From: Lophium mytilinum | Lineage: Eukaryota | DNA length: 64,000 bases | Assembly: GCA_010093605.1 (NCBI GenBank) | Contig: MU004195.1 | Span: 1-64,000, forward strand | Direction: 5' to 3' | Shown: one piece after another, positions 7,641-55,985 of the stretch | Layout: every line of letters begins with the position of its first letter | How positions within the stretch are numbered: position 1 is the first letter of the stretch | Translations under genes and position numbers: made by a program | Notes under the pieces: model-generated | Database searches by the model: none | The model's input: the letters and a program-made list of their open reading frames with translations, nothing else | What the model was told of the DNA's origin: nothing

Positions 7641-7681
7641 GCTGCGGTTTCGATGCCTCCTACATGCTAGGCTAAGGGGGT

Positions 7682-18125: not shown

Positions 18126-18673
18126 AGAGGTGGGGGATCTGAAAGCAATGGCAACTTCATTTTCTAATCTTGTCATTATTTGCAATGTTTTCTAGCAGCA
18201 TTCTTCCAAATAAAAATATAAGCTCTGCGGGGAATTTGAACGAGGCAAGCGGCAAATGTTTGAAGCTGCAGCGCATTTCCTACTGCACTACCCACAGGAG
18301 ATCACCAGGTCAGGGCACAGAGGGCTCACGTCAACAAAAGCGGACCGTGGAGAGAGCAGTCCTGGCCCTCCGGATGGTTCGGTGGTGGGTGCTGGACCGG
18401 ACCGGTGAAAAATCTCCGACTCACCCACGGCGATCGCGACACAGCATCCGAGACCAGGGAGTCAACCCCTACTCCCAGGATATTCATAGTAGCTGGGTGC
18501 AGATCATAAGGAAAGAAGATCGCATGGGTCAGCCGACATTTGCGGCGCATACGGCCCCTAAAGCTCTTATTCACTGGAGAAACCTTTAAAATGCTGCTCA
18601 AGAAGAACACTATATTTGAGTTCAACAACCATCCCCTAAAAGGACGTTCAACACTCCATACATCACAGCCAAA

Positions 18674-19258
18674 ATGACGGTGACAGTGGACTTCGACGCC
18701 CCGGCCGACCAAGTCAAGTCTCCTGCAATCCTCGCACACGTCGTCCTACGCACCGCAAACTTCAAAGAAATGGTCAACTTTTACAAAACTTTCCTCGGCG
18801 CGTCTGCCGCCTACGAGAACGACTTCCTCTCTTTCCTCACTTACGACGAGGAGCATCACCGCATTGCGCTTCTTTGTGTACCAGGAACCGGCCCAAAGGT
18901 ACCAACGAGCTCGGGCCTAGAGCACATTGCTTTCGCCTACGAGAAGCTGGAAGACCTAGCTCTAGCATATCGCCAGCGTAAAGCTAAGGGTATCTTGCCG
19001 GTGTGGAGTGTAAACCACGGCCCCACGACATCGATATACTACAAAGATCCCGATGGGAACATGCTTGAGACTCAAGTCGACAACTTCGATGTTCCCGACG
19101 ATGCCACTAAGTTCATGATGTCGAAGGATTTTGAGGTGAACCCGTTTGGTACAGACTTTGAGCCGGAAGACTTGATTAAGAGGCTGAGGGCGGGCGAGGA
19201 TGAGAAGTCAATTAAGAAGAGGATTGAAAGTGGTCCGAGGGGTATTCCAGATCTCTGA
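18674..19258 (+). CDS. VOC/glyoxalase-family protein, single-domain extradiol dioxygenase (BphC-III)-like
   Basis: LAHVVLRT, YDEEHHRIAL, GLEHIAF, NHGPTTSIYYKDPDGNMLETQ; intronless. Confidence 0.88.
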   Translation: MTVTVDFDAPADQVKSPAILAHVVLRTANFKEMVNFYKTFLGASAAYENDFLSFLTYDEEHHRIALLCVPGTGPKVPTSSGLEHIAFAYEKLEDLALAYRQRKAKGILPVWSVNHGPTTSIYYKDPDGNMLETQVDNFDVPDDATKFMMSKDFEVNPFGTDFEPEDLIKRLRAGEDEKSIKKRIESGPRGIPDL

Positions 19259-23891: not shown

Positions 23892-25082
23892 CAGTCTCCT
23901 AGGTGACCTACTCCTTGAAGTCTTTCCAGAAGACTACTTCTATTACAATCTCTTTTTGGTCTTGGGTATGCGTGGGAAAGCGTCAACGACCTCGATATTC
24001 CAATCAACTCAGTATTGATAGTATTGATGCAATCAGTTCAGTCAACATGACCTACCTTTGCTGACTAACTGACAACTCAATCATTATCGAGAGGCCAGAC
24101 TGATTGATTAAATTGACGCCAGCCAGGGGAGCTTGTCGGTGACGCTATCGTTCTGCATGATGCCGTCGTCTTTGGCTAGATTCTTAGGCTGAGCGTCAGC
24201 CATGCATTCCGTGTAACTGAGCATGACACGGTGAAGGACGTCCCGCATAGCCCAAGAGCCCTAGTTGAAGCTTATAAGCCTACCCGCAGAGGTGGGTGAG
24301 TGGCAGATGTCCGAAAAGCAGCCGGAGTCCGCACGCGATGCTGACCAGCGTAGGAAAGTTACGTAGACATTCAAGAGGAGCGACAGATACGTGTAAATTG
24401 CGGGAAGCACAGTGATGGTTGTCACTTGCAAGCCATGGAGAGCAGATGGAAGCGTGAAGCGTGAGGTAAGGTGTGTCGTCGGCGATGGTGTTGAGTGCAG
24501 GGGCGCTCCCGACACCGGCCCACCGGTCTTCGGCATGCTTGGCCTAGGAAAACGCTCGGTCCAGGCCCGAGACCCTGCATTAGATAGTCCCGCTATCAGC
24601 CTTCTCACCCTACAGATCCTTTTTGCTGCTCAACATTACTCCTCGACGCCCGCCCTCCTTTTCCTGTCTGCAACACCACAACCATCTGCATATCCATCGC
24701 TCAATCTCGCCTACAGGACCTCAAGCAGTGCGGTCGTTCTTACTGGTCTATCTTATGGTGAGAACCGCTTTTGGGCAACAACATCCCTCGGTTAGACCAG
24801 TCCCGTGATACGAGGTCCAGGTCTAGTCTGCTTGGCCATCGGGTCCCGACATCTCGTTCTTTCCCAAGATCGGATCGCAATCGTTGCAGACATTCGTCTA
24901 GGGCAGCCAGAAAAAGGCCTGAAGTGCATCTGAGCGAAAATCTGGATCTGGGCCGACTCGGCCGCCTTTTTTTCTTGCCGCTCCGACCATACCCGTCAGA
25001 TAACCAGACGCGTCGACGCCGGTGATCTCGGAAAACTCTCAAATAGCACGCATCAAGCAGATTTCTTATTCATTTCCGTAGA

Positions 25083-33084: not shown

Positions 33085-33777
33085 TCATTCCCTTCCGCTA
33101 CCCCACCCCACCCACCCCCTCCCCAACCTCTCCACCGCCTCGCCCTCGTCCACCACATCCGCAAACAACATCTCCAAATCAAATAGCGTCGCCTGCTGAA
33201 TCTCGCGACTCCGATCCCCACTCCCCTCATCCACCACGATACTCCGAAACCCGTATCCCAGCGCATCCACCGCCGTCGCCCGCACACACCCACTCGTACT
33301 AACCCCACACACCACCACCGTATCCACTTCCATCCCGCCCAAAACCCCCGCCAAATTCGTGCCAAAAAACGCACTCGGGTTCTTCTTCAAAATTACCACG
33401 TCCTCTGGCCCTGGCGTCAGGCCCTCGAGCCACGCGTCCATGCCCCGCGTGTCGCCGTCCTGCCAGATACTGATGCCGGGCGCTTTGACGGCTTGGATGG
33501 CGCCGTCGAGCATTTTGGGGTGGTTGTAGCGGACTTGAGCCCACAGCACGGGGGTGGAGCCGGCGCGGGCGGCAGCGAGGAGCCGGCGCATGGAAGCGGG
33601 GGAGTTGGAGCCGGCGGGGTCGGCGAGGAAGGAGAGGGGGGAGGTGGGGGACCAGTAGGCGCTGCAGACGTCGATGAGGAGGAGGGCGGGCTTGGAGCCC
33701 CAGCCGAGGCGCGTGTGGAGGTTGGAGGCGAGGGATGAGGCGTATGAGGGATGGGAGATTACGAGTGGAGTTGTCAT
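33085..33777 (-). CDS. Isochorismatase-family cysteine amidohydrolase (N-carbamoylsarcosine amidase / maleamate amidohydrolase-like)
   Basis: LGWGSKPALLLID, KKNPSAFFGT and GVSTSGCVRATAVD give an intact Asp-Lys-Cys triad. Confidence 0.9.
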   Translation of the reverse strand: MTTPLVISHPSYASSLASNLHTRLGWGSKPALLLIDVCSAYWSPTSPLSFLADPAGSNSPASMRRLLAAARAGSTPVLWAQVRYNHPKMLDGAIQAVKAPGISIWQDGDTRGMDAWLEGLTPGPEDVVILKKNPSAFFGTNLAGVLGGMEVDTVVVCGVSTSGCVRATAVDALGYGFRSIVVDEGSGDRSREIQQATLFDLEMLFADVVDEGEAVERLGRGWVGWGSGRE

Positions 33778-34071
33778 TTTGGGGATTGGCGTTGTTGGGT
33801 TAGTGAGCGATGAAGAATGGGAAAGGTGTAAGATGTAGGTAGATGTGGTGAGCTGGGATGTACTGTATATGCATGTGTAGATGCCGGCCGGCATCTGGAG
33901 AGTTTTGCCGGGATACTTGAGAGGGAGTCACTAATAACGTGCAGGAAGGTTTGGAGATTTGGTGGACTAAACCCAGATCGCTAGGTCATCTATTACTGGA
34001 TATCAAAGCTAAAATACGCACCCTCCCAGGCTCATTGCTCTATGACGACAGGCGAGACTCTTCGGACGTGT

Positions 34072-35777
34072 TTACAGCTTCCCCCTGATCTTTATCTCTA
34101 GCATCCTCGCAGGAATGTAGATCAAAGTCCCGAGGACGAGTGCAAATTCGAAGCCCAAATCTCCTGCTTTCTCTGCTATCGGGCCTGTATACCAGGTTTG
34201 CGCCATGCTGGGCACGACCAGGGCAAAAGGGATTATCAGCGCGGCGAGGGCTGCAAGTCCGCTTGGAAGGTCGCTGGCCACATTCCAGATCTTGTGGTCG
34301 TATGCTGCCGGGTTGGCTTTGCGGAAGATGAACCACTCGCTCAGCAGAATGCCCGTGAAGGCAGCAGCCCAATAAGCGATGACTCCTAGGAAGCTCTCAA
34401 GAGATTCGAAAAACGATTCCGCGGCCTTGATACCGACACCAAGATCAATAGCGGTGATGAGGATGACGAAGAGAACGCGCGGCACTTTGACGAACTGCGG
34501 CCAGATGATCTGGAAGTTCAGCGAGACGGAGTAGAAGCCTGGCGAGATTTGGGCTACGACGGAAAGAGCGAGAAGGACTGCGATGAATTTGCCGAAGCCG
34601 CCCGCTGGGTGCAACATCACTTCGAGAACGCCGCCGACGGAGTCGCGGTCGTATGCGTCAGCCCAGGCTGGGACGTTTGGAACTGCACCGCCGATGGCTG
34701 CGCCGAGACACATGAGAAGAACGGAGGGTAGGCAAATGCCCATCCAGCAGTACATGAAGATGCGCCATCTACAGTGACACAAGTTAGATCAGGTCACCAG
34801 ATGATACGGACTGGAAGTGCTTACTTTGGTGCCTTGGGAGAGAAGTAGACGGCAATATCTCCAACCGTCGAGCTATATGGAAGCATGTACCCGGCGATAA
34901 AGCTGATAAATATCATGACAGTCTGTCCACTTGGCGCTACTGGCGGTGCCTGCTCCTTCAACTTATTGCCGCCGCATCCTACTGCTACGAGAATGGCAAT
35001 CAGTGCGGGTATCCAGGCATATCTTTCATATTGATGGATGAAGTTGAAGCCGAAGAACGCAGGAACCATGGCACAGATGCCAACAACAACAATACCAACG
35101 ATCTGGCTGATGGAATCGTTCGATACAGCCGCTAGAGTTTGTCCAGCGGTGACTAGGCAGATGATTTGGTAACCGCAGAGAGAGCACATGTTCAGAATGA
35201 CGACGAGAATATTTGGATACATGCTATGTCGCGTTAGAAATGGGCCCAGTTTATTTGATGCAGGGGACTCACCCAAAGCTATACCGCGCCTGAATCATTT
35301 GACGCATGCCTGTGCGCGGCGATATGGTCTCAATGTATGCAGGAGGTATACAAAGCAGAAAAGAGAAGAAGAAGATGAGTAGACTGCAGTCCCTCAAACT
35401 CAGTCCGAATGCCAACGTTCCGAGCATGCCGGTGACAAGGCTGACGTTGATATTAGCTTGAACCTTGATGCATTTCGAGAGATGCAGGCTTACGGTAGAG
35501 GGCAAATCAGACTGGTAAACCACACAGTAAAAATCTTATTGTACTGCAAATCGGTTCGCTGCTCTTCAGGCACAGGCTGCACACCACGAAGCTCAACACC
35601 AGTGGCGGAGAGCAGTTTCCAGAGCTTAGAAAATATCCCTTTGCTCATGAGAGGGGATTCGCTTTCGATGATCTCCACATCGCCAGCGATAGGAGTGGAG
35701 GTATCGACAACATGTCCCTTTTCGATATCGGAGTCCGACTTCTCATTAGGAGGCGTGTTTGTTGATGCTCGTTCCAT
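34072..35777 (-). CDS. NCS1 purine-cytosine permease family transporter (Fcy2/Tpn1-like)
   Basis: GVELRGVQPVP, GMRQMIQARYSFG, IHQYERYAWIP, GGFGKF, FLGVIAYW, MAQTWYTGPIA, GDLGFE; three GT-AG introns. Confidence 0.9.
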
Positions 35778-36394
35778 GGCGCCTTGTGTGTAAAGATTGA
35801 CCAAAAAGGGTCCCGATGGATATGGAAAGGATGGTCCCAGTTACCAGTTCGTTGGGTTGCAAAGCGAGGGATGGCTTCTGCAAGACCTTATTTTATGTTC
35901 TCGCTTATAGGCCAGCTCGGATGCAATGGCAGCTGTCGGAAACCGCTATCAGATATGGGGTATCGTGTTTTGCCGGCCGCTACCTGATATACATGATAGG
36001 ACCCTGGAACTTTATCGGCAGTTCCACGTGTAGCACAACGCTAAGAGAATCTCGACTAGCATAGACCTGGAGGCGACTATCGAATTAGCGTAACGTTGCG
36101 AACATTGCCATTCCTGTTATCTCGGTTACTTACTCCGTCGGACCGTTTTGACTCGCAACACTATTTGGGGCGTTGTGGAACATTGAGGTGTTGCAGCATA
36201 AGACAACTCGGAACTGTGACGCCAAGTCGTTATCGTAGCTCGGCCCTATCCACGGTGATCTAAATAATCGCAAAATCGAGGCAGTCGATCTTATGTAACA
36301 CGTGATCATCTGCTTCATTGAATGATTTGGAAGACGTGGCATATAATATTGTGGCGTAAAGACGACCGAAAAACGCGACATCTCTAGTCACCGA

Positions 36395-38046
36395 CTACGC
36401 TGGGCGGGTTCCCAGAGCCGGTAAACCGCTCTCCACGAGTACTTTGTTTACTTCGGCAAGATTCTCCAGAAAGTGCCCCTTCATGTTATCCCAGAACTCC
36501 GGTTTTTGGAGTTTGATCGTGTTGTGCCTTTCCATGGCGAACTTGGTAACAGAGAAATGAGAGCTGAGGTGTAGCATAAAACCAATGCTGCCAACTCCAA
36601 CCAGCATGGGCTCCAAAGGCGTAGTGGTAGCTTTCACCCAGGCTTCATACGACTCTCCATGTGGCATGTAGCTGTGCTCTAGAGTGAGTCCGCCAGCTTC
36701 TTGCTCTCGGGCGCTGCCACCGTATTTTCCGCAAATGAGACCACCAATCTCGGTGGCCATGTTACGATGGTAATACTAAAAAACGAAGATCAGTATGGCG
36801 TGATTGGTGGGTAGCCTATATACGTACGGGCGGTCTGAAGGTGTTCGTCGCTGTGGCCCACTTCGGAGTGAAAACAGCGAATTCTGTGAGCGATACCCCG
36901 TCCCATTTCGACTTTGCCATCAGAACTGTGTAGATGGTGGGATCGAGTTGTTCTTTCATTGAAGAAGAGAGAGCAACGAACTTCTCGAGCAGGTATTTAT
37001 ATGGGACGTAGCTGAAATGTGATGAGCGTTGTTCCATGTGCGAGATATAATACTTTACTGACTTTCCATGCCACGCCACTACATCGAACGGTGTCCATGC
37101 TTGATCATAGCAATAGAGCTCGCCTGTAAGTTTATGGACAATGGTCCACTTCGATTCGTCAATGTCGAAACTGGCGACTGGCATCTCAAAGTCTCTGGGA
37201 TGTGCCAGACCATTCGTTCCAACGGGTCCCATTTCCGGAAGCTCGTAGTGACTGCCGAATATCTCCTGGATATAACCATGAACTGGTCCATCAGGCAATA
37301 GAACTCGGAATCGGATGCCAGCTTGCATGACAAAGATCTCTCCGGGTCGTACCATTATCCGGCCCAGTTCTGTCTGAATGTCCAGCCGGCCGACCTGTGG
37401 AATGATCAACATATCCCCGTCATTATTGCAAAAGGCCTCGTTGATCATAGATGCATTAGCAGCATACATGTGAACCGCGACACCTTCCCTGATGGTGGGA
37501 TCGCCGCGGCCACCCATGGTCTTGATTCCTTGGTAGAAGTTGATGCTTTGAGAGGCTTCTGGGATGTCGAGTGGGCCCCAAGTATAGGTAAGAGGAGTAT
37601 AATGAACGTTTGGGTTTTGAGGGGCGAAGCATGCTTCAAGGTCTGGTGACAGTGCCATAGGCTGGAGTGGTCGATGAGCGACTGATGGGCGAACCCGGTA
37701 CATCCAGACATGTTGCAATGATTGCCGAGAAGAAATGAAAGAGGTTCCATTGAGCTGCTCAGAATACAAATCGTACCGGCATTTCTGTGGTACGTTCTGA
37801 CCACCTGGTGGGAGAGCGCCAGGTCTATGAACGGCGTTAACGCAAGTCTGATGCAATTGCTCATTGCACTGCTCACACTGCTTCTGTCGCAAATCGATTA
37901 CCAAAGCCCGTCTGGTATCGATACGGATCGCCCGTCCTTGGCTCTGTGGTGAAGGACCCGGCTGCGGATGCTCCAAAGGTAGGGCTGAAGGGTGTGCCTG
38001 CTGCGGTAACAGGAGCTAGATGCTCCAAGCCGCTAATTTCTCCCAT
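36395..38046 (-). CDS. Homogentisate 1,2-dioxygenase-like protein, divergent paralog
   Basis: Exons 38046-37877, 37824-37063, 37011-36828 and 36775-36395. YQTGFGN, LYSEQLNGT, WMYRVRPS, NNDGD, PFDVVAWHGNY, FRPPYYHRN..TE, PHG. Confidence 0.9.
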
Positions 38047-38441
38047 GCTTGCTAATTCAAAACGCAAGAAAACTGGATTCGAGAGCAAGGAAAAGATAAG
38101 AAGACGCTGCAATGGCTACAGTATTGCAGCAGCCGCGTATATAGCCCAGATGGAGCCCCATTTGCCACCAGGCAATAACGTGTGCCGCGGACAATGTTTG
38201 CGGGGACTTGTACCGGGGCCTGCAGTTTGCCGGCCGGCCATACTGTGAGGACAGCTTCTAAGATCTGCATCTATGAAGTCCCTGTGGCACGTTGAGGTGA
38301 GAGTCAGGGAGTCCCGATAAGGGTCCAAACCATGATTCAAACAAGAGTGGGCTGCATTGCAGATAAGACTGATGGTGCCGGGGCTGAATAAAACCATCGG
38401 CCGGCCAGCAGCCGGCAGTTGGAACAGTGGAAGCATCGGGC

Positions 38442-40618
38442 ATGATGGATGAATCTCGTTTGGATGAGCATCGTGCAAGGCTGAGCAGGGCCAGTGTTGC
38501 ATGTCGAAGGTGCGTGAGTTGAATTTGAAGCTTGAGCGAAGTTGGACGGAGAAATGCTCGGGCCGGCTGATCCCTTCTCGCCCAAACAGATGCCGGAGAC
38601 TTCGAGCCAAATGCCATCACGACAATGGAGAGCCGCCGTGTAATGGATGCATCAAGGCAGGGCCCCAGGAGAGGGACTCGTGGTAAGTGCTATATCACGG
38701 AGTGATTACACGACCTTTAGGCCCTGAAGTTGGTTCTAATCGACTCTCTAGCTCATTCCCACCACGAGGGCACAGCCATCGCGATCGAGAGTTTCGAGCC
38801 CCTCGACGGAAATCTAGGACAGATGCCCCTTCTAATCCACAAACACGCCCTCAAGTCGTGTCGAAACGCGCCACACCCCCAATCATCCTCGAAACCCCAC
38901 AGACACTATCTCCAATAGGCTCGAATACAACCAGCAGTCCAGAGGCTCTGCTTTCTTGGGAGCTGCTACCTCCTCATGAAGAGGTTGTCGAGGGATGCAA
39001 GGTATTCTGGACATCTTTGATCCAAGTTGGCTTCATTCCCAAGCGCCTGTTTCTCGAGCGTCTGAGCAAAGACCGCTCGTCGATCAGTCTATTCTTCATA
39101 CTCAGCATCCTGAGCGTGTCTGCCAGGTTCACGCCCAGCCTTATCAGGCGTTATGGAGACTGCTCTAGTGCTGGGGACTACTTCATCCATCATGCCTCGC
39201 GCTTGGTGGGCCAGGTCCTCTATGAGCCTACTCTGGAGAACGTACAAGCACTGTTTCTACTTGCACTAGCGCAGTATGCCCAAGGAGACCGCACGCGCAG
39301 TTCTATGAACATGGGCATTGCTGTCAGAATGGCTGGTATTCTCCGTCTACACCGAGAAGAGACGTATGTGCTCCCAGAGCACGTATCTACGGATGAAGCA
39401 GTGCAATCGGAGATGGCGAGAAGGACTTTCTGGGTGTTGGAAACTCAGGACCATCTCCACTCCGGACATGCTTCACCCTTGCCATTCGCCCCCTCTGACA
39501 TTACTGCCTTGCTTCCGTCGGATGAGAGCGACTTCGCATTCGGGAGGGTCCCAAAGCAACGTGCCGCGCTTGCTGGTACCAAGGCCGCAGAACTAAATCC
39601 ACAACTGACCTCTCTTCCTTCACGCTCATTATTTGCGACTTTATTGGAAGCTCATAGTCACTGGGGCAACGTAGCAAGAAAAGCTTGTCGGACGGATCTT
39701 TCCAACGACTCAGTAAAGCCTTGGGATAGCGGTAGCGACTTTGCACGTATCATTCAGACACTAAATGATTGGGAGGCCGGCCTACCGGACAAGCATTGCT
39801 GGTCAGTCTGGAATCTCCGAGGCTATTGCGCCGAAGAGCTCCATCTGGCGTATATGTCAGTGGTCATGGCCACTAGATTGAACCACGTCGTAATTCGAAG
39901 AATCTACCTGGATGATATTCTTGCTGCCGCTTCTGGGACCTCGCAGGACGATGCTCCACCAAGCTTCTGGCGTAACGTCGCGGAAGACATGTTTACTAAC
40001 GTTTGTGCTCTACACGAGCGTATTGGTACATTCATATCTCTCCGTTCGGAAAACGAAGGATTCCCAGCTATGCTATTATTCTCACTTTATGTGTGCGGGA
40101 CTCTCGCTATTCAACTTCTCAGATGGCCTCATTTGGCCCCGCGTTATGCCTCAAAGGCAGAATCGATCGCAAGCGGCTCCCTGGAGATCTTGGGCGATCT
40201 GCAGCATATATGGCCACTAGCATCACGGTGGACAAATTCTCTCCGCAGATCAGCGGCGTATCTCCAGAGTAGAGATGGTATCGACCTGCCAGCTTTCATA
40301 CCATCCACCCAGTTCGAAGACCGGATAGCGAACTCTGAGGATCTACAGCTCCCAAGCATACATTCGGCCAACTCACCCAGAAATATCGACACCGCCAACC
40401 TTGAAGTGCTCAGCATGGCCGTGTCGTCTCGATCGCAGATGGAAATGATGGGCAGCAACGAAGACTTAATAGATCCGTCCCTCACCTTGACACCCACGAT
40501 TCGCCCCCTTGGTGATGCTTTTGAGACGGAGCTGGCAGAATTTTTGCTTGGAAGAACACACATGGGGATGATGAACGACTGGGTTTCTGAGCGATTCAGC
40601 GTCACGCAGAGCTTTTGA
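38442..40618 (+). CDS. Zn(II)2Cys6 transcription factor, divergent from the dioxygenase
   Basis: Spliced ACRRCRRLRAKCHHDNGEPPCNGC...C; fungal TF domain with AVRMAGILRLH and ARRTFW. Confidence 0.88.
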
Positions 40619-41314
40619 TGCACTGTTTCATCCGCTATTGACAATACATAGGATAGATCTAGCCTGAATGTTACAATGTGGCACAGCACACCTACAGGTG
40701 CTCTGCGAATATACGCTCGTCCTACTGCTTTTTTAGCGATACTTCCTCGTGATATTCTCTAATTGCCGAAATTATCAATTGATCTAAAGCGTTACGTTCT
40801 CCATCGCTACTTATATCTCACTCCTCAAAACAGCCACAGAACGCCATCGATTCGTCTGAGAAAGCGTGGACTCCCAAGAACATGGCCTGAAAGCTACAGT
40901 CTCAACGAACTCTTCTATCGTCGTGGACCGATCCGCGAAGGAAGTTCATCCTGTTGAGTGTGGCCTTGGTATGGGCAAGATGCGCTAGCCAAATTCAGCT
41001 TGTCCGGGATCTTGTTGCGAGCCCAAAACAAGGGGCCAACGAACCTCAGATCTCCACTTGGCACCAGCGCTTTCTCAACGCTCAATATCCAAACCTCTTT
41101 GCAACAAATAAAGGCTTAGGCCGTGACAACTACCGGTCGGCGCTAGTCTGGGGGCGGCACCAGTGCTACTTTCAGTGCACCGTTATGGCCAGCCTCGATT
41201 CTACCTATATGACAGACTCTGATGTGGATATATCGGTCATCAGTACTTCTACCTAGACCACCCCCAATATACCCTGGTAGCCCACGAAGAACACCCTTCG
41301 CAAAAGAAAAAACT

Positions 41315-42562
41315 ATGCCGGCAGTTCCAACAGCAACCTCAGTTCCGCCCATTGGCCCTGCAGTCCCGAAGCTCCGATCCTCTTGTGATAGCTGCGGAAA
41401 TGCCAAAGTTAAATGCGATCGTGATCGACCCAAATGTGGTCGCTGTGCTACTCTCGGCTTGCCCTGTGTCTACGGGCTATCGCGCCATTTTGGCAAACCA
41501 CCGAGGAAGAGGCTTACCACAGATCTTGATGAAGGGACCGCCAGATGCAAAAAACGAACGACACGTGTTGACCAGAGTCGCAGCAATTATATTGCCTTGG
41601 ACTATACCCGGCCCCAAAGTATGAACGATTCCGGACAGCTTGTACTCTCCAATCCAACGACAGATATCCCTTCATCTACTTCCGACCTCTCAAATCCGTT
41701 GCGTTTGGACGAGCAGAGTCAATTCATCTCGGCCTTTTCCCCCTCATTGTTCTTTGATGAATGGCCTCAGCTGGAAAATTTCGAATTTGGCATTGATATT
41801 CCCTCAGTCGCAAAGAGTCCCGCCACAGAGGCCCGACCATCAGCTTCCGCATTAGAGCCCATCAACTCGAGGATAGACTCTACCTCTCGAAAGCCCCACA
41901 GCTGCCCACGGGAGTCGTACGAGATTTTTCGGGATTTGATCTGCCCTGCGCCTGACCTACACGCACCCGAAGCAAATTCGGATCCCGTCTCAGCACGACT
42001 GGACCAGGTACTTTGCTGCACCAGAAATGCCATCGATCGTCTTTCGCAGCTTCTAAGATGTCCATGCGCCAGCTCCGGGCACCGGGTCATGGTACACGCC
42101 TCTTCTATTGCCCGAATACTGATGTGGTACCAACAGGCTGCGGGGTGGACCTGCAGTAATGCCTGGCAGTCTCGGCCGTTAGCACTGGCAAGCTCGCCAA
42201 CGTCGGGCAGTGCGTCTCCATCTTCGCCGCCTTCATATGATACAGGGGCCAGCACAGATACAATAAGCACACCCACACTGGCTCAATGTACTGGGTTTGT
42301 GGTTGAACATGTGCCTGTTTCAATGGGGGCGTTCAGCATCGAAGATCAGAATATGCAGGCTGCATTCAAGACCCGGTTGGTTTTGAGCGAGCTTAAAAGG
42401 ACTGCTAGCTTGATTGAACTCTTTATATCGCAAGGCTCCTGCGAACCCTCCGCCAATGGTATCGCTGGCTTGCATACACATCTAGGAACATGGCTCCGGA
42501 GTGAGCATTCTCGAACTGTCGAAACTTTGACGGCGAAGCTTAGTGCTTTGAACGACATCTAG
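41315..42562 (+). CDS. AflR/GliZ-like Zn(II)2Cys6 transcription factor
   Basis: KLRSSCDSCGNAKVKCDRDRPKCGRCATLGLPCVYGLSR; C-terminal LSQLLRCPC...ILMWY...VSMGAFSIE...LVLSEL, typical of AflR-type regulators. Confidence 0.85.
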   Translation: MPAVPTATSVPPIGPAVPKLRSSCDSCGNAKVKCDRDRPKCGRCATLGLPCVYGLSRHFGKPPRKRLTTDLDEGTARCKKRTTRVDQSRSNYIALDYTRPQSMNDSGQLVLSNPTTDIPSSTSDLSNPLRLDEQSQFISAFSPSLFFDEWPQLENFEFGIDIPSVAKSPATEARPSASALEPINSRIDSTSRKPHSCPRESYEIFRDLICPAPDLHAPEANSDPVSARLDQVLCCTRNAIDRLSQLLRCPCASSGHRVMVHASSIARILMWYQQAAGWTCSNAWQSRPLALASSPTSGSASPSSPPSYDTGASTDTISTPTLAQCTGFVVEHVPVSMGAFSIEDQNMQAAFKTRLVLSELKRTASLIELFISQGSCEPSANGIAGLHTHLGTWLRSEHSRTVETLTAKLSALNDI

Positions 42563-42692
42563 ATCTACTTTAATCTAAATCGGATAAACCGGGCTTGAAG
42601 CCAATATGTCACATAGTCCTCAATTATGGGCCGTTGAATAAGGAATTCGATTTGAGGGAATGAAAAGGCAGTGCGCGCATTGGCCGCAGTTT

Positions 42693-42703
42693 TCGGGAAC
42701 CGA
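42693..42703. promoter_or_regulatory. TCGG-N3-CCGA (= TCG-N5-CGA) AflR/GliZ-type site
   Basis: tcgggaaccga lies ~215 bp upstream of the NmrA-like ATG, with TATAAAA at ~42818. Confidence 0.55.
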
Positions 42704-42918
42704 TGGAGAAACCCCATTGGCTGAGTCGCTGCTATCCAGAACAAGCGATCCTAGATGCTTCAAAACACAACAAGTGATTTTCTGTTCGATTAGACTTGGG
42801 TACTGAGCTGGGTTTTCTATAAAAAGCGGAGGTCAATCCCACTTCTTAATAGTAAATAGATCTCGTCAGCACACATTTTTCCCTTCATTCATTTTTCATA
42901 CCTCACCACTCAAGCACA

Positions 42919-44142
42919 ATGGTCAAGATCGCAATAGCTGGTGGCTCGGGTGGTACGTAACTTTGCATTCCAAACGAGAAAAAATAGAGCTAACTTTACA
43001 TCCAGAAGTTGCCAGTGAGGTCATCGACGCTTTGGTAACCGCGAAGAAGCATGAGATTACTATCCTCAGTAGGAGGGTGAGTATTTACCCTTGGCCTTCG
43101 TTTTTCCACAGCAATCTTACTTAGGCGGCACAGAAAGCTCCTATCGGGGACAAAAGGGAAGGATTGTCATGGCGAGTTGTAAACTACGACGACAAGAGCG
43201 AGCTGATCGAAGCCCTCCAGGGAATTCACACCGTCTTGTCTTTCATTCAGCTCCTGACGGATCCGAATCAACAGGCCCAGAAGAATCTGATCGATGCTGC
43301 CATACTTGCCGACGTGAAGCGATTTGCTCCCAGCGAATATGGAAGGTGAGCCAGCGAGTCTCCCTGGGATAGATCAATACTTACCGTCTGCAAAGCGCAA
43401 CCACAGTAGATATGCCCTGGTGGGCTAGAAAAGATGCCGTCCAAGAGTACCTGAAACAAGTCAACGAGAGTGGGAAGGTAAAACCCAATCCCACATTCTA
43501 TGACGGTCGCATCGTTGCTGATTCCGCCGCTCAGACAATCGAGTATACCCTTTTCCAGCCAGGCATGTTTCTGGACTACCTGGCATTCCCATACAAGACG
43601 GCTAGACATCTTACTCCTCTAAATACGATGATTGATTTTGAGCACCGGCGTGCAGTTATCGTTGAAGGCCACGACGCCATCATGACTTTCACCACAGTCC
43701 AAGATCTTGCTGCAGTTGTAGCGAGAGCAGTTGACTACGATGGAAAGTGGCCCGTCATTGGTGGAATCAGTGGCAACAGAGTCCCCATTTCGCGCATTCT
43801 CGAGATTGGTGAGAAAGTTCGAGGTTGGTCTCATCCCACCCATCTGAAACATCGTCGAGCTGCTCTCATAATGTCACAGGTCATCCATTTACCATTGGAA
43901 AGGTGAAAGTGGAAGATCTTGAGGGCGGAATTCTCAATACTTCGTGGTCGCTCGAAACGAGCCATCCAAGCGTCTCTGGAGAAGAGGCCACGAAATTGTT
44001 GAAAGCTGTCCTCATTGGTACCCTATTAAGCTGCGCAAAGGGTGCCTGGGATGTGTCGGATGACTTCAACCAGCTTTTACCAGATTTCAAGTTCACGCAG
44101 ATCGAGGACTTCCTCGCCAAAGTCTGGGAGGGAAAGCCGTAG
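42919..44142 (+). CDS. NmrA/isoflavone-reductase-like NAD(P)-binding oxidoreductase
   Basis: MVKIAIAGGSG, NLIDAAILADVKRFAPSEYG, EYTLFQPGMFLDY, FTTVQDLA; multiple introns. Confidence 0.88.
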
Positions 44143-44312
44143 TCGTAGATGTGTGATAGGCGAAGTCGCTCGCAGTGCCGGCCGGCGAATTTGCCGTGGC
44201 GGCTACACATGTTACCAACATCAACACATACTTTCTCACATACAACCTCATCAAAGCGTCGGAGTCTCTCACCACCTCTTGTAAAGCAAGCACATTGAAG
44301 TCACACCTAGCT

Positions 44313-45039
44313 ATGGCTGACATCTCCCCTGCTGATTATCCCGAGTACACCGAGAACATTTCCAACAAATCCCAGCCTCCACTCGGCTTCGGGACCCGCC
44401 CAGCCCTGATCATTGTCGATGCTCAAAAAGCTTACTGGAGTCCTGATTCGCCTCTCGATTTCAGCTCTTATGAGAATGCCGCCGCTGCTCCTGCCCACAT
44501 CAAGACCCTCGTTTCCTCCGCTCGCTCTGGAAAGTGTCCCGTGATATGGTCTCGGATACAATACGAGAACGCATCACTGAGGGATGCAGGCTTATGGGCG
44601 AAGAAGAGGAAGCACCTAGACTGTTTCCTGTCCAGTGATTCGAGGGGTCTAGGAGACTGGATTGAAGGACTTGGCCCCGAAGGAGACGATGTCGTTATTA
44701 CGAAGAAGTTCGCGAGCGCATTCTTCGGGACAACACTTGCGACACAATTACAGATGCTCAACGTAGACACCTTAGTGATTTCTGGTGCGAATACGAGCGG
44801 ATCCATCAGACAGACAACACTGGACACCATGCAAAGCGGGTTTAGACCAATCGTAAGCTATGATTCTATCCTCTCAGCTCGTCACGAGGTAGCTAACTTA
44901 CGTTTCAAAGGTTGTAGCAGCGGCTTGTGCTGATCGGTCTCGAGAGACTCACTTCGCGAATCTGTTCGATATTCGGGCAAAGATGGGAGATGTGATTGCT
45001 GTCGATGAAGCTTGCAAACAGCTGGAGAAGGGTTGGTAG
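44313..45039 (+). CDS. Second isochorismatase-family protein, nucleophile Cys replaced by Ser
   Basis: LGFGTRPALIIVD, KKFASAFFGT, GANTSGSIR; intron 44853-44910; exon 2 ends at stop 45037-45039. Confidence 0.88.
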
Positions 45040-45539
45040 CGAGGCTGCAACCAAACTATCTTTGCGAATATACCACTCTTCTGGCACATTTCTGACTTGC
45101 CTCACATTTGTACAACTTGATCGCTGCTCTAAAAGCTCGCCCAGGGACCCTTGTCTGACGCAATCTGTAAGCGAATATACGAATTCACGTACTCCCCAAA
45201 GGTTACAGAAGGCCTCATGCTCTGTCACCTTCGGGTTCGATGACTGACAGACTGTACGCCGAGGGCCTAGCAAACAATTGAATACCCAACCTCTTGGCCC
45301 AATCAACTCTCCATTGAAGTCATCCGCCCCGCTGCCCCACCTTCGTACAGCAGCTTGATGCGCCTTAACGTGCCGTCGGAGATAGGCGCCACCATCCCGA
45401 TCAGGCGGCCAAAGTGCCGGCCGGGAGATACCAAACCATCACTCACATCTATCATCATGCACCGAATGCCTAGAAATACTAGCCAGGTACTATCACACAA
45501 CAGTAAAGACGAATTGGCATTACTCGCTTTTTCTTCAAA

Positions 45540-47478
45540 ATGGTGCTTCCTCTGAACGTGGTGACTTTGACGGCAGCTCTGCTGCTAGTTGGTGTCTGCT
45601 ACAAGCTTTACACCAAGCTTTTCGCGGGCAAATACCCATTACCGCCTGGACCAAAGGCGCAGTTCTTGGTTGGGCACTATGGTATCGTCCCGGCTGAAGG
45701 ACCGCAGTTTCAGTACGCCAAATGGTCGAAGGAGTTGAGTGAGTACATCCATAGTCAGGAGCGAGAAGAGGTCACGTGCTTTCCATATCCTACTCGAACG
45801 ACCGCAAATAGCAACGCTTGAGAACAAAGCGACAGATTGCTTGTGGTGAACATTTAAGGGGCTAACGACAAAACTAGATACCGATATCCTGTACTTCGAG
45901 TCCTTTGGCACAAAATGGATTGTACTCAACAGCCTCCAAGCGTCTATTGACCTTCTAGATAAACGGGGGAATAACTACAGTGATAGACCGCGTTTCATCA
46001 TGAATGATCTGTCAGTCTACTTTTCCTCAACCTTCAAATCGATGCAACCATGTTTTTTTGCATTCAATGAAGGTCGTTCTACCCCCAAACTGACCTCACC
46101 CACAGCATGGGCTGGGCACCAACGCTCACCTGGCTCCGCTGGTCCCCTAAAATGCAGCAACACCGCAAACTCCTCCAGCCTCCATTCTCCAAGTCGAAAG
46201 TCTCCCAATACTGCCCCCTCCAGCGCCGCGAAGCTATCAAAGCCGCCCAATCCATCCTCCGCACAAATGCCGACCCCATGGCCTGGAACAACGCCATCCG
46301 CCGCTTCGCCGTCGCCGTGGTCATAAACATCGGCTTCGGCGTCGAAATCAAAGACGACAAAAGCCCCTATATCAAAATCGCAGACGAGGCCGCGATGGCA
46401 ATCAGCAACGCAGGCGCCCCAGCGAGCAGTATCGTCGACCGATTCCCCGCCAGTGAGCACCCCTATCCCTCAACCCACCCCTTTCCTTTCTATTCCATCT
46501 AACCCTAACGCCCCCCTTCAGCTCGCTTCCTCCCCTCCTTCCTCCCCTTCATGGAGCGCAAACGCTACGCCGAACGCTGGCGCTACGCCATCGAAAACAT
46601 CACCAACATTCCCTTCGCGGCGACCATCGCCGACCTCGCCGCGAACCGCCGCACCAACTGCTTCGCCGCCGACCGCCTCTCGATCCACGCCTCCAACGCC
46701 GAAAAAGGCATCCCAAACGACTTCTCCCTCGCCGACATCAAGGGCGCCGCTGCCGCCATCTACATCGCCGGCAACGACACCACGCAGACCACCATCGCGC
46801 TCTTCGTGCTGTACCTCATGCAGCACCCGGCCGTGCGCGCGAAAGCGGTCGCCGAGATCGACCGCGTGGTCGGGAGCGAGCGGCTGCCGGAGTTTGCGGA
46901 TATCCCGAACCTGCCGTATTTGAATCTCGTGCTGCAGGAGTGCTATCGCATGAATCCGTTGAGTCCGCTGGGGATCCCGCATGCGAGTGTCAAGGATGAT
47001 GTGTATCGGGGGATGCGGATCCCGGCGGGCACGATTGTGTACCAGAATGTGTGGGCGATTACGCACGATCCGGCGGTTTATTCGCGGGCGTTTGAGTTCT
47101 GGCCAGAGCGGTACTTGAGTGTGGAGGAGGGGGGGAAGGGGGAGCCGTTTCCGGTGGGGAATTTTGGGTTTGGGAGGAGGGTGTGCATTGGGCGCAATCT
47201 GGCCGAGAATAGCATGTTTATGATGTTTGCGGTTGTGTTGGCGACGGTGGAGTTTGGGTGGCCGTTGGGGCCGGATGGGGGGGAGGAGGAGTATGAGATT
47301 GAGTGGTCGTTTAAGGGACAGGCGTCAGTACTTCTCTTTTGTCGATTTGACGAGAGGACAGATGCGAGAGAGTAAAGGCTGACGTTAACGCAGACACCCG
47401 CTACCCTTCAAATGTAGGATGGCACCGCGGAGTGCGAAGGCAGAGGCTTTGCTGATGAATGCGGACTTGTCGACTTAG
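45540..47478 (+). CDS. Cytochrome P450 (OrdA/CYP64-clan-like)
   Basis: N-terminal anchor plus PPGP, YSDRP, AGNDTT, ECYR, WPERY, FGFGRRVCIG; last exon ~47394-47478. Confidence 0.92.
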
Positions 47479-55100: not shown

Positions 55101-55985
55101 AGTAAGCTTGTTTTACATCCTATCTGGTGAAAAGGCATAGCTGAGCTCAGTTTCTTTCCCTTTTTGCGACGTTTAGAGCATGACGATTAGTAGGCCAAGG
55201 TCAATATTTTCTTGGGAGGGGCATAATAGGTTTCATCATTCACCTACATTTCAATTGGCTTGTGTTGCGGGTAGAAGTTTCTTCACTCAGATCACGTGCT
55301 GTTTTAACTCTTGTCTTTAGGCAGCTAAGTAGCACCTTGCAAAGGTATAAAGATCACAAAAAACGTCACCACTACGCTCTTGCTGGCTGTTGGCCTTATC
55401 CTCTGTCGAGGGTGGTCCGTGTGCGCGATAATAGGGCCTACTAGTCGGGGACATCGCCTTGGTTTTAATTGGGTAGCTCATGTCCTACAGCGTTTGGCGG
55501 CGTCCAGTAAACTAACGTGGAGATCAAGCCGCAGAACTTGGCTATAAAAATGAAATAATGGAGAAAGTACTTCGCCTCGCGGTACTGCACTCTCAGCAGA
55601 GCTAGCTCGGCATAAGTAAGAAAGTCCAAAAAAACGCTTCCTCCGTTTCACTACCACCTGTTACATCTGTGGCTTCAAGTCTGCGTTAGTTCACCGGACA
55701 CAGCAAGACCCTGTAGGTACTTATAGCTGGAGCCTTCCGCCAGTACCTGGTTGGCTCGGTGCCTTATCCGCCAAGGCGTTATCGTCTGCCTTGACCGGTC
55801 AGATTCTTTGCGCCTCCAATCCGAAGACCCCACGTCATGCAAAGTGTAATGTACAAAAAGTAAGGCTCATACCCGTTGCCCCTTTTTCAGTAAGCCCCGC
55901 TAATCGTATCTCAGGCGTGAGACAACGACAGAGTGCATTCTCTACATTTCAAAAGAAGACCAGACTTTTTCTACCGGGACTTCAA

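What the first reader, a model, noticed from the sequence alone, without database searches (positions are those of the whole stretch)
33085..40618. Candidate fungal N-heteroaromatic catabolic cluster: NCS1 permease, altered HGD-like dioxygenase, amidase and regulator
Seen: three co-oriented minus-strand genes (dioxygenase, permease, amidase) and a Zn2Cys6 gene divergent from the dioxygenase across a 395-bp CGG-rich gap. No hppD, fumarylacetoacetase or maleylacetoacetate isomerase is in the window. Known: NCS1 Fcy2/Tpn1 carriers import nucleobases and vitamin B6. In the bacterial nicotinate maleamate pathway, 2,5-dihydroxypyridine is ring-cleaved and the isochorismatase-family NicF releases ammonia from maleamate. 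Inference: this may be an analogous pathway in which an HGD-fold enzyme opens a hydroxylated pyridine or pyrimidine ring and the amidase hydrolyses the amide product, distinct from tyrosine catabolism.
Basis: partly seen in the sequence, partly recalled or inferred. Interest (0 to 1): 0.75.

Follow-up and report, generated by a model that had tools for sequence, protein, structure and literature searches.

The report
Conserved fungal ring-cleavage gene cluster
This is a real, expressed and widely conserved fungal gene cluster built around an uncharacterised relative of homogentisate dioxygenase, probably used to import and break down a nitrogen-containing aromatic compound whose identity is still unknown.

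Summary
The four genes exist as described, and spliced RNA contigs confirm every intron I modelled. The cluster is larger than reported. A 10-bp palindrome, GCCGGCCGGC or a near copy, lies upstream of six genes: amidase, NCS1 permease, dioxygenase, Zn2Cys6 regulator, a second isochorismatase paralogue and a cytochrome P450. It occurs nowhere else in the 64 kb. The same gene set and the same palindrome recur in unrelated environmental fungal contigs. Accession or locus-tag order places the genes side by side in many named Pezizomycotina.

The dioxygenase keeps the iron ligands and the lid tyrosine. The histidine that binds homogentisate's ring hydroxyl (human His292) is glutamine here. It is glutamine in 103 of the 104 readable rows of a well-supported 109-row fungal clade. 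The only characterised fungal homogentisate-dioxygenase-like paralogues cleave methoxyhydroquinones, not homogentisate.

My reading: the cluster handles a nitrogenous para-diol. The compound is imported, hydroxylated by the P450 and ring-cleaved, and the resulting amide or ureide is hydrolysed by the amidase. No whole genome was available to look for a separate canonical hmgA. I rate it a new variant of a known kind, of moderate interest.

The parts
33085..33777 (-). ISO1: isochorismatase-family cysteine hydrolase (amidase), 230 aa, single exon
   Evidence: PF00857 E 5.9e-27. Asp/Lys/Cys positions align with N-carbamoylsarcosine amidohydrolase 26st, E 3e-30. 230/230 identical to P0254. Below every NCBIfam equivalog cutoff.
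33883..33892 (.). Palindrome GCCGGCCGGC, about 106 bp upstream of the ISO1 ATG
34072..35777 (-). Fcy-type NCS1 permease, 515 aa; exons 35777-35494, 35440-35273, 35223-34825, 34768-34072
   Evidence: PF02133 on exon 2. All three introns confirmed by RNA contig joints. Closest named relatives are 'purine-cytosine permease'.
35972..35979 (.). GCCGGCCG site, about 195 bp upstream of the permease ATG
36395..38046 (-). HGD-like dioxygenase, 498 aa; exons 38046-37877, 37824-37063, 37011-36828, 36775-36395. Carries Gln332 in place of human His292.
   Evidence: HgmA_N/HgmA_C. PDB alignments. Introns confirmed. Residue table.
38047..38441 (.). 395-bp divergent promoter with two sites: GCCGGCCGGC at 38229-38238, and a GCCGGCCG site at 38398-38405 whose near-palindrome GCCGGCCAGC lies at 38400-38409
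38442..40618 (+). Zn2Cys6 regulator, 675 aa; exons 38442-38509, 38590-38682, 38752-40618
   Evidence: Fungal_trans E 4e-13. Partial Zn_clus on exon 2, E 0.007. Introns confirmed. Homologues sit beside the dioxygenase in L003 and L007/L008.
41213..42562 (+). AflR-like Zn2Cys6 gene (ORF bounds) lying between the two halves of the cluster. No palindrome upstream; membership doubtful.
   Evidence: PF08493 and PF00172. No motif. No homologue in the related loci.
42807..44142 (+). NmrA-like NAD(P)-binding gene (approximate bounds, 5 introns). No palindrome upstream; membership doubtful.
   Evidence: PF05368 at 29.7 bits. Joints. No homologue in the related loci.
44177..44186 (.). Palindrome GCCGGCCGGC, about 130 bp upstream of the ISO2 ATG
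44313..45039 (+). ISO2: second isochorismatase paralogue, 40% identical to ISO1. Ser stands where ISO1 has the nucleophile Cys (TSGSIR against TSGCVR). One intron, 44853-44910.
   Evidence: PF00857 E 2.7e-21. BLASTP against ISO1. Intron joint.
45416..45425 (.). GCCGGCCGGG site, about 115 bp upstream of the P450 ATG
45540..47478 (+). Cytochrome P450, about 521 aa, 5 exons. Homologue of the P450 that lies head-to-head with the dioxygenase in other fungi.
   Evidence: PF00067 E 4.9e-52. tblastn of P0263. One intron confirmed. Homologues next to HGD in L003, L007/8, L018, L019 and L020 and in named genomes.

Best explanation
This is a six-gene catabolic regulon that is conserved across filamentous ascomycetes. 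The cluster's own Zn2Cys6 factor probably controls it through GCCGGCCGGC palindromes, which are everted CCG-N2-CGG half-sites.

Proposed flow, with the status of each step:
1. The Fcy-type NCS1 permease imports a nitrogen-containing aromatic or heteroaromatic compound. This is inferred.
2. The P450 adds a hydroxyl to give a para-diol, that is, a hydroquinone-like ring. This is inferred from its conserved pairing with the dioxygenase.
3. The HGD-fold dioxygenase opens the ring next to a hydroxyl. The Fe(II) site is shown to be intact. The substrate is inferred not to be homogentisate, because the His that binds the para-hydroxyl is Gln, and because the only characterised paralogues cleave methoxyhydroquinones.
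4. The ring substituent or ring nitrogen next to the cut ends up as an amide or ureide. The isochorismatase-family cysteine hydrolase ISO1 hydrolyses it and releases ammonia. This would parallel the esterase OmeA, which removes the methyl ester left after methoxyhydroquinone cleavage in Aspergillus niger. The step is inferred by analogy.

The role of ISO2 (Cys to Ser) is open. It could perform a second hydrolytic step or be inactive.
For: Genes and expression: models. All 8 modelled introns of the permease, dioxygenase and regulator appear as joints in spliced contigs of run X1.

Shared cis-element:
- GCCGGCCG gives 10 matches at 7 sites in 64 kb, against 1.48 expected. None of 100 shuffles reached 10.
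- All 7 sites lie between 33.8 and 45.5 kb. Six are 44-352 bp upstream of the ATGs of ISO1, permease, HGD, the regulator, ISO2 and P450. One lies inside the HGD coding sequence.
- The exact 10-mer palindrome occurs 3 times, all in these promoters.

Conservation, from the 23 metagenome loci fetched with the dioxygenase:
- Permease homologues lie beside it in 5 loci (L001, L003, L007, L008, L018).
- The regulator lies beside it in 3 (L003, L007, L008) and the amidase in 3 (L003, L007, L008).
- The P450 lies beside it in 6 (L003, L007, L008, L018, L019, L020), always divergent from HGD.
- L019 adds a P450 reductase. L007 adds a FAD monooxygenase and an Abhydrolase_3 gene.
- The palindrome sits upstream of HGD in L001, L007/L008, L018/L019, L020 and L011. 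It sits upstream of the amidase in L007. It is absent from L003.

Named genomes, by accession or locus-tag order:
- HGD and amidase are 2 apart in Mytilinidion, 2 apart in Pleurostoma, 3 apart in Lachnellula subtilissima and 6 apart in Podospora aff. communis.
- P450 and HGD are adjacent or nearly so in Stachybotrys, Hirsutella, Anthostomella, Stylonectria (twice) and T. marneffei (TMatcc_002489 and _002492).
- Permease and HGD are 2 apart in Meristemomyces.
- One Pseudogymnoascus gene model fuses NCS1 with P450.

Dioxygenase:
- Fe ligands H375/E381/H411, lid Tyr390, and the Pro and Tyr pocket residues are kept.
- Human His292 aligns with Gln332.
- In a 137-row tree, the 109-row clade holding the window has SH-like support of 100 on a branch of 0.32. 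It reads [DE]Q in 103 of 104 readable rows.
- The basal basidiomycete-type rows read DH in 26 of 26. Human HGD and PDB 9pz4 also read DH.

Published precedent:
- Roles of His292, and of Tyr350 as the contact for the carboxylate: bioRxiv 10.64898/2026.06.02.729205 (passages) and PMC11634970 (section 7).
- A. niger MhdA, annotated as HGD and 50.8% identical to HmgA, and P. chrysosporium PcMHQD1/2 cleave methoxyhydroquinones. MhdA's neighbour, the esterase OmeA, hydrolyses the resulting methyl ester (PMC8336404 passages; PMC11634970).

Amidase: Asp/Lys/Cys positions align with N-carbamoylsarcosine amidohydrolase 26st (E 3e-30). The next matches are 4l07 and 3ot4/3uao. The best NCBIfam matches, all far below cutoff, are RutB, a generic hydrolase model (PRK11440) and biuret amidohydrolase; RutB and biuret amidohydrolase both act on C-N bonds of ureides.

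No FAH, GST or HPPD domain was found in the window.
Against: - No substrate, induction or enzyme data exist for any member of this clade. I found none in 8 answered paper searches.
- The lid tyrosine said to contact homogentisate's carboxylate is kept. Homogentisate, or an analogue carrying a carboxymethyl group, therefore cannot be excluded.
- Gln in place of His292 marks the whole large clade. That clade may include methoxyhydroquinone enzymes, so the substitution does not by itself point to a nitrogenous ring. I could not place MhdA, PcMHQD or A. nidulans HmgA in the tree, because no tool could supply their sequences.
- The amidase and permease are not universal partners.
- L003 has the genes but not the palindrome.
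- In this window the P450 is 7.5 kb from the dioxygenase, separated by two genes that lack the motif.
- P450s are unusual hydroxylases for electron-poor N-heterocycles (general knowledge).
- That the cluster's own factor binds the palindrome is inference only.
- Accession order as a proxy for gene order is a convention, not a measurement.
Confidence: 0.5

Rival explanations
1. This is a methoxyhydroquinone-type pathway for lignin-derived aromatics. The dioxygenase would be a functional equivalent of A. niger MhdA or P. chrysosporium PcMHQD. The P450 would demethylate or hydroxylate a methoxylated phenol. The permease and amidases would serve another purpose or a side branch.
For: The only characterised HGD-like paralogues cleave methoxy- and dimethoxyhydroquinone. 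The related locus L007 carries a FAD_binding_3 monooxygenase and an Abhydrolase_3 gene beside the dioxygenase. These loosely recall VhyA and the esterase OmeA. The organism's closest relatives are fungi I recall as wood and resin dwellers.
Against: The window has no esterase and no flavin monooxygenase by Pfam. Instead it has two amidase-family genes and an NCS1 permease, each carrying the shared palindrome. The permease and amidase recur with the dioxygenase in distant lineages. Orthology to MhdA was not tested.
Confidence: 0.17
2. This is a peripheral route into true homogentisate. An imported aryl-acetamide-like compound is deamidated by ISO1 and hydroxylated by the P450 to homogentisate or a close analogue. 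A dedicated, separately regulated homogentisate dioxygenase then cleaves it, and the housekeeping MaiA and FahA finish the job.
For: The Fe triad, the lid Tyr and the pocket Pro/Tyr residues are conserved. PcMHQD1 still turns over homogentisate. From recall, P450s make homogentisate from phenylacetate in A. nidulans (PhacA, PhacB).
Against: His292 is Gln throughout the clade. The P450's named relatives are OrdA-, CYP621- or PsiH-like, and none of the 120 listed hits is named phenylacetate hydroxylase. In T. marneffei the four hmgA paralogues do not rescue a hmgA deletion on tyrosine or phenylalanine. The known relatives of ISO1 act on small aliphatic amides and ureides. No fahA or maiA is nearby.
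Confidence: 0.13
3. This is a secondary-metabolite biosynthetic or tailoring cluster governed by the neighbouring AflR-like regulator.
For: An AflR-domain Zn2Cys6 gene and an NmrA-like gene lie between the two halves. The P450's relatives are named after aflatoxin and psilocybin enzymes.
Against: No PKS, NRPS, terpene synthase or prenyltransferase domain appears anywhere in the window. The AflR-like and NmrA-like genes lack the palindrome. They also have no counterpart in the related loci. A permease, a ring-cleaving dioxygenase and an amidase form a catabolic signature.
Confidence: 0.05
4. The neighbouring genes are unrelated and sit together by chance.
For: Fungal genomes are dense. Each of these families is large.
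Against: The palindrome is confined to these promoters, and none of 100 shuffles matched its count. The same gene set and the same palindrome recur in independent lineages.
Confidence: 0.02

Closest known systems
Aspergillus niger MhdA (methoxyhydroquinone 1,2-dioxygenase) with its neighbouring esterase OmeA; Phanerochaete chrysosporium PcMHQD1/2
   Same: These are HGD-fold, Fe(II)-dependent enzymes annotated as homogentisate dioxygenase. They open a para-diol ring that is not homogentisate. A neighbouring hydrolase then removes the group left on the fission product (PMC8336404; PMC11634970).
   Different: Here the hydrolase partners are isochorismatase-family amidases, not a carboxylesterase. 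The cluster also adds a P450, an NCS1 permease and a dedicated regulator with a conserved palindrome. Orthology to MhdA is untested. The window's 27-row subclade is separate from the Aspergillus and Penicillium rows in the tree.
Classical homogentisate 1,2-dioxygenase (human HGD, Pseudomonas putida HmgA, A. nidulans HmgA) in tyrosine catabolism
   Same: Same two Pfam domains. Fe ligands His/Glu/His, the lid Tyr and the pocket Pro/Tyr are kept. E 1.5e-79 to human 1ey2.
   Different: His292 is Gln. Human His365 and Lys353 align with Glu and Ser. There are no hppD, fahA or maiA neighbours. The T. marneffei paralogues do not function in tyrosine use.
Bacterial nicotinate maleamate pathway (NicX, NicD, NicF, NicE) and the Rut pyrimidine pathway (RutA, RutB)
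   Same: The logic is the same: an oxygenase opens a hydroxylated N-heterocycle, and an isochorismatase-family hydrolase then releases nitrogen. ISO1 matches 3ot4/3uao and 4l07 (which I recall as maleamate amidases) at E about 1e-23, and RutB at E 5e-10.
   Different: The ring-opening enzyme here has an HGD fold, which differs from NicX and RutA. No deformylase or maleate isomerase was seen in the window. ISO1 falls far below the RutB and biuret-hydrolase cutoffs. That the substrate is a heterocycle has not been shown.
Aspergillus nidulans hxn nicotinate cluster (recalled, not read here)
   Same: It is a fungal catabolic cluster for an N-heterocycle, specific to one Zn2Cys6 regulator, and it includes permeases and an amidase.
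   Different: As I recall, the hxn route saturates the ring and opens it hydrolytically with a cyclic imidase. It has no HGD-fold dioxygenase and no isochorismatase-family enzyme.

Membership tests
Homogentisate 1,2-dioxygenase (EC 1.13.11.5) | HgmA_N and HgmA_C domains | tested here: met
   PF20510 E 8e-91. PF04209 E 1e-11 and 2e-13 on two exons.
Homogentisate 1,2-dioxygenase (EC 1.13.11.5) | Fe(II) ligands His335, Glu341, His371 (human numbering) | tested here: met
   H375, E381 and H411 align without gaps to 1ey2.
Homogentisate 1,2-dioxygenase (EC 1.13.11.5) | His292, which hydrogen-bonds the ring hydroxyl para to the metal-bound one | tested here: not met
   Gln332 (KEQLDP against human FDHADP). 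[DE]Q in 103 of 104 readable rows of the clade. Role of the residue.
Homogentisate 1,2-dioxygenase (EC 1.13.11.5) | Lid tyrosine (human Tyr350) that contacts the substrate carboxylate | tested here: met
   Tyr390. Role of the residue from PMC11634970.
Homogentisate 1,2-dioxygenase (EC 1.13.11.5) | NCBIfam hmgA equivalog score | tested here: inconclusive
   350 bits against a cutoff of 510.75. Only 332 of the 498 residues could be given as one unspliced reference.
Homogentisate 1,2-dioxygenase (EC 1.13.11.5) | Tyrosine-pathway neighbours (hppD, fahA, maiA) | tested here: not met
   None found by Pfam in 202 ORFs scanned. The Glyoxalase ORF is not an HPPD.
Homogentisate 1,2-dioxygenase (EC 1.13.11.5) | Efficient cleavage of homogentisate | not testable with these tools
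   Needs an enzyme assay.
MhdA/PcMHQD-type hydroquinone dioxygenases | Orthology to A. niger NRRL3_10111 or to PcMHQD1/2 | not tested
MhdA/PcMHQD-type hydroquinone dioxygenases | Adjacent esterase for the fission product | tested here: not met
   No esterase domain in the window. Isochorismatase-family genes stand there instead.
Isochorismatase-like cysteine hydrolases (N-carbamoylsarcosine amidase / maleamate amidase group) | PF00857 domain with the Asp-Lys-Cys triad | tested here: met
   ISO1: PF00857. The D, K and C columns align with 26st. That these three residues form the triad is recalled knowledge of the family. ISO2 has Ser at the Cys column.
Isochorismatase-like cysteine hydrolases (N-carbamoylsarcosine amidase / maleamate amidase group) | Membership of a specific equivalog (RutB, BiuH, nicotinamidase) | tested here: not met
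   43.7 bits against 378, 32.9 against 370, and 22.8 against 174.
NCS1 transporters, Fcy type | PF02133 match and Fcy-type relatives | tested here: met
   Exon 2 scores 36.4 bits against a cutoff of 23.5. Relatives are named purine-cytosine permease. Only a weak match to the CodB structure, E 0.014. The TM1 stretch differs from more distant relatives.
Zn2Cys6 fungal regulators | Six-cysteine cluster plus the fungal middle-homology domain | tested here: met
   CX2CX6CX8CX2CX10C in the spliced product. Zn_clus partial on exon 2, E 0.007. PF04082 E 4e-13.

The most novel reading that the evidence does not exclude
Filamentous ascomycetes may possess an undescribed oxidative route for opening N-heteroaromatic rings. 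Candidate substrates are a hydroxypyridine such as 2,5-dihydroxypyridine, or a 5-hydroxylated pyrimidine. A P450 would make the aza-hydroquinone. A His-to-Gln variant of the homogentisate dioxygenase fold would cut it, with the Gln amide reading the lactam edge of the ring. Isochorismatase-family hydrolases would strip the nitrogen. One Zn2Cys6 factor would control everything through GCCGGCCGGC.
Probability: 0.22. Interest if true: 0.8.

Novelty: new variant of a known kind. Interest (0 to 1): 0.55.

Why it matters
Most filamentous fungi carry several genes annotated as 'homogentisate dioxygenase'. Only the tyrosine enzyme and the methoxyhydroquinone enzymes have known functions. A 2025 comparative study notes ancient duplication and divergence of this family in Pezizomycotina, without assigning functions (PMC12420386).

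This analysis adds several things for one large clade:
- a diagnostic residue, His292 to Gln;
- a constant P450 partner;
- frequent permease and amidase partners;
- a candidate regulator with a conserved binding-site candidate.

Together these make the function directly testable. One can overexpress the regulator, read out the regulon and assay the enzymes. If the substrate is nitrogenous, this would be a new fungal route for nitrogen scavenging from aromatic or heteroaromatic compounds. It would also supply a new ring-cleaving biocatalyst.

Tried and rejected
- Earlier notes of this scan: nothing by place or by sequence.
- ESM Atlas on the P450: returned only a generic 'cytochrome P450' label.
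- RNA runs: one run was listed, labelled only as 'RNA?'. Its contigs are spliced, so I used them for intron boundaries only. Contig depths were not used to rank genes, as the tool advises. No induction data exist.
- His365 as a discriminator: rejected. The basidiomycete-type rows lack a His at that column too.
- Bulk CGG richness of the 395-bp gap: not significant, since 13% of windows match it.
- Permease splice model B (alternative donor and acceptor): rejected by the RNA joints and by alignment to P0385.
- Jeoung et al. 2013 (PNAS) could not be read by DOI or by PMC id. Residue roles therefore come from a 2026 preprint and a 2024 review.
- Literature searches for this gene combination found no description of it. 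Terms tried: homogentisate with isochorismatase; with purine-cytosine permease; with maleamate amidohydrolase; with P450 and Zn2Cys6.
- Supplementary trees of PMC8336404 and PMC12420386, which might place this clade, were not opened.
- Structure prediction and complex prediction were not run. They could not show ligand contacts.

Full report
**What is in the sequence**

The window is a fungal chromosome segment. Its core has about 50-57% G+C and its flanks are AT-rich. No whole genome is held for it.

I built gene models by hand for the four reported genes:
- A single-exon isochorismatase-family gene, 33085-33777 (-).
- A four-exon NCS1 permease, 34072-35777 (-).
- A four-exon homogentisate-dioxygenase-like gene, 36395-38046 (-).
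- A three-exon Zn2Cys6 gene, 38442-40618 (+).

Pfam supports each family.

A public run whose contigs turned out to be spliced reproduces all eight introns of the permease, dioxygenase and regulator at exactly the modelled positions. This includes the permease donor that I had been unsure of. The genes are therefore real and transcribed.

Proteins returned by the searches match the window closely. They are named from Lophium mytilinum. Two are identical to the window's products (amidase 230/230; dioxygenase exons 57/57 and 126/126). The third, the P450, is about 96% identical. The next closest species is Mytilinidion resinicola.

**The cluster is larger than reported**

An AflR-like regulator and an NmrA-like gene lie next to the four genes. 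Beyond them are a second isochorismatase paralogue (44313-45039) and a cytochrome P450 (45540-47478). The paralogue is 40% identical to the first and has Ser where the first has the nucleophile Cys.

An 8-mer, GCCGGCCG, ties these genes to the four reported ones:
- It gives 10 matches at 7 sites in the 64-kb window, against 1.48 expected. None of 100 shuffles reached 10.
- All 7 sites lie between 33.8 and 45.5 kb.
- Six sites are 44-352 bp upstream of the start codons of the amidase, the permease, the dioxygenase, the regulator, the second paralogue and the P450. The seventh lies inside the dioxygenase coding sequence.
- The full 10-bp palindrome GCCGGCCGGC occurs three times, all in these promoters.
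- The AflR-like and NmrA-like genes have no site.

By contrast, the bulk CGG/CCG content of the 395-bp gap is unremarkable. It holds 19 triplets against a mean of 12.4 (sd 5.4), and 13% of comparable windows reach 19.

**Conservation in environmental contigs**

A scan of metagenome contigs with the Mytilinidion dioxygenase gave 23 loci. I ran local tblastn with the window's products against them.

| Partner | Loci where it lies beside the dioxygenase |
|---|---|
| Permease | 5 (L001, L003, L007, L008, L018) |
| Regulator | 3 (L003, L007, L008) |
| Amidase | 3 (L003, L007, L008) |
| P450 | 6 (L003, L007, L008, L018, L019, L020) |

In all six loci the P450 is transcribed divergently from the dioxygenase. 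L007 and L008 are near-duplicates of each other, and L018, L019 and L022 overlap. The number of independent lineages is therefore smaller than the number of loci.

L003 packs permease, regulator, P450, dioxygenase and amidase into 9 kb. L019 adds a P450 reductase. L007 adds a FAD monooxygenase and an Abhydrolase_3 gene.

The same palindrome lies in the promoter upstream of the dioxygenase in L001, L007/L008, L018/L019, L020 and L011. In L007 it also lies upstream of the amidase. L003 lacks it.

The remaining loci carry basidiomycete-type or non-fungal dioxygenases. They have none of these neighbours.

**Conservation in named genomes**

Consecutive accessions or locus tags show the same picture:
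- Dioxygenase and amidase are 2 genes apart in Mytilinidion, 2 apart in Pleurostoma, 3 apart in Lachnellula subtilissima and 6 apart in Podospora aff. communis.
- P450 and dioxygenase are adjacent or nearly so in Stachybotrys, Hirsutella, Anthostomella, Stylonectria (two pairs) and Talaromyces marneffei.
- Permease and dioxygenase are two apart in Meristemomyces.
- One Pseudogymnoascus gene model fuses NCS1 with P450.

That accession order mirrors gene order is a convention I rely on. I did not measure it.

The association of the amidase is not universal. For Thozetella, Hypoxylon rubiginosum, Cirrosporium, Meristemomyces, three Aspergillus species, Pleomassaria and Clohesyomyces, the best dioxygenase and amidase hits lie on contigs of different length.

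**The dioxygenase**

It aligns over its full length with solved homogentisate dioxygenases: E 5e-101 to 9pz4 and 1.5e-79 to human 1ey2. It keeps several features:
- The iron ligands (H375, E381, H411).
- The lid tyrosine (Y390).
- The Pro/Tyr pocket.

The histidine that hydrogen-bonds the para-hydroxyl of homogentisate (human His292; role as stated in a 2026 preprint) is glutamine here. The window reads KEQLDP where human HGD reads FDHADP.

I built a FastTree from 137 rows. These were the window's product, 119 of the 120 listed hits, and 17 locus-derived pseudo-proteins. I left out one hit shorter than 400 aa, five locus fragments shorter than 300 aa, and L008. The window falls in a 109-row clade, almost all of it ascomycete, with SH-like support of 100 on a branch of 0.32.

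That clade reads [DE]Q at this position in 103 of its 104 readable rows; the one exception reads Leu. The basal basidiomycete-type rows read DH in 26 of 26. Seven of the 137 rows could not be read.

Neighbours of the P450, permease or amidase type are found in several widely separated subclades of the Gln clade. His365 is not a useful discriminator, because the His-type fungal rows lack it too.

**What is known about such paralogues**

- Boyce et al. 2015 (PMC4374905, passages read) report five hmgA homologues in T. marneffei. Deleting the hmgA in the tyrosine cluster abolishes growth on tyrosine, so the four paralogues do not substitute. The T. marneffei protein is 72% identical to the window's and lies three genes from the P450 homologue. 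I infer that it is one of those paralogues, but I could not map it to a specific locus id.
- Lubbers et al. 2021 (PMC8336404, passages) showed that A. niger MhdA is a methoxyhydroquinone 1,2-dioxygenase. It was annotated as homogentisate dioxygenase and is 50.8% identical to HmgA. Its neighbour OmeA hydrolyses the methyl ester derived from the fission product.
- A 2024 review (PMC11634970, section 7) reports the same chemistry for PcMHQD1/2. It names the lid tyrosine as the contact for homogentisate's carboxylate.
- A 2025 study (PMC12420386, passages) notes ancient duplication and functional divergence of this family in Pezizomycotina, with only these enzymes characterised.

I found no description of the gene combination seen here.

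**The other parts**

The amidase's Asp, Lys and Cys columns align with N-carbamoylsarcosine amidohydrolase (26st, E 3e-30). The next matches are 4l07/4l08 and 3ot4/3uao, which I recall to be maleamate amidases, and then RutB. It is far below the NCBIfam cutoffs for RutB, biuret amidohydrolase and nicotinamidase. It belongs to the amide- and ureide-cleaving part of the family without being any known enzyme.

The permease is Fcy-type NCS1. Its relatives are named purine-cytosine permease. Its first conserved membrane stretch differs from that of more distant relatives.

The P450's named relatives are OrdA-, CYP621- or PsiH-like. None of the 120 listed hits is named as a phenylacetate hydroxylase.

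**Interpretation**

Three points are shown by the evidence:
- This is a conserved, transcribed six-gene unit with a shared, conserved palindrome.
- The dioxygenase belongs to a diverged clade defined by His292 to Gln.
- The constant partner of that clade is a P450.

The rest is inferred:
- The cluster's Zn2Cys6 factor reads the palindrome.
- The P450 creates the para-diol that the dioxygenase cuts.
- The substrate contains nitrogen, because the accessory genes are a nucleobase-type permease and C-N hydrolases rather than the esterase of the methoxyhydroquinone pathway.
- The amidase therefore plays OmeA's part on an amide or ureide.

Theirs is the heteroaromatic special case of it. An aza-hydroquinone such as 2,5-dihydroxypyridine, or a 5-hydroxypyrimidine, would fit the permease, the ureide-type relatives of the amidase and a Gln that could read a lactam edge. 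Nothing here demonstrates it. The retained lid tyrosine also keeps a carboxymethyl-bearing substrate in play.

The rivals cannot be excluded without assays. They are a plain methoxyhydroquinone pathway and a dedicated feeder into true homogentisate. The biosynthetic-cluster and chance readings are unlikely.

**Verdict**

I rate the finding a new variant of a known kind: catabolism based on an HGD-like hydroquinone dioxygenase. Interest is moderate. It would be higher if the substrate proves to be an N-heterocycle.

Noticed in passing
window 44313-45039: The second isochorismatase paralogue has Ser in place of the catalytic Cys (TSGSIR). It still carries the cluster palindrome upstream and is covered by spliced RNA contigs. 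It may be a changed nucleophile or an inactive copy.
   Followed up: partly
window 41213-44142: An AflR-domain Zn2Cys6 gene and an NmrA-like gene sit between the two halves of the regulon. They lack the palindrome. One RNA contig runs across both of them and into ISO2.
   Followed up: partly
window 1-8000 and 58000-64000: The flanks are AT-rich (G+C 0.20-0.30) against a core of 0.50-0.57. This isochore-like structure may reflect repeat-induced point mutation. At 2312-2773, ORFs are open in all six frames.
   Followed up: no
window 25047-28028: A 993-aa open frame fuses a glutamine amidotransferase domain with a chorismate-binding domain. It looks like a para-aminobenzoate synthase and is probably a housekeeping gene.
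   Followed up: no
window 17568-19258: A Polyketide_cyc2 (START-like) ORF lies next to a Glyoxalase/VOC-superfamily ORF. The latter is not an HPPD by PDB matches.
   Followed up: partly
window 37385-37392: One copy of GCCGGCCG lies inside the dioxygenase coding sequence. It may be a chance occurrence or an intragenic site.
   Followed up: no
L007 2649-4017: An Abhydrolase_3 gene has a GCCGGCCGGA site just upstream. The regulon in that fungus may therefore include an esterase-type hydrolase as well as the amidase.
   Followed up: partly
L019 2-1813: A cytochrome P450 reductase-like gene lies next to the P450-dioxygenase pair.
   Followed up: no
P0013 (Meristemomyces) and P0005: Two clade members have lost key residues. 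P0013 has Gly at the Glu341 column and Pro at the Tyr350 column. P0005 has His at the Tyr350 column. They may be decaying copies.
   Followed up: no
window 49882-52257 and 55620-57752: A peptidase S41 gene with a CPAF-like PDZ domain, and a HET-domain gene. Neither is related to the cluster.
   Followed up: no
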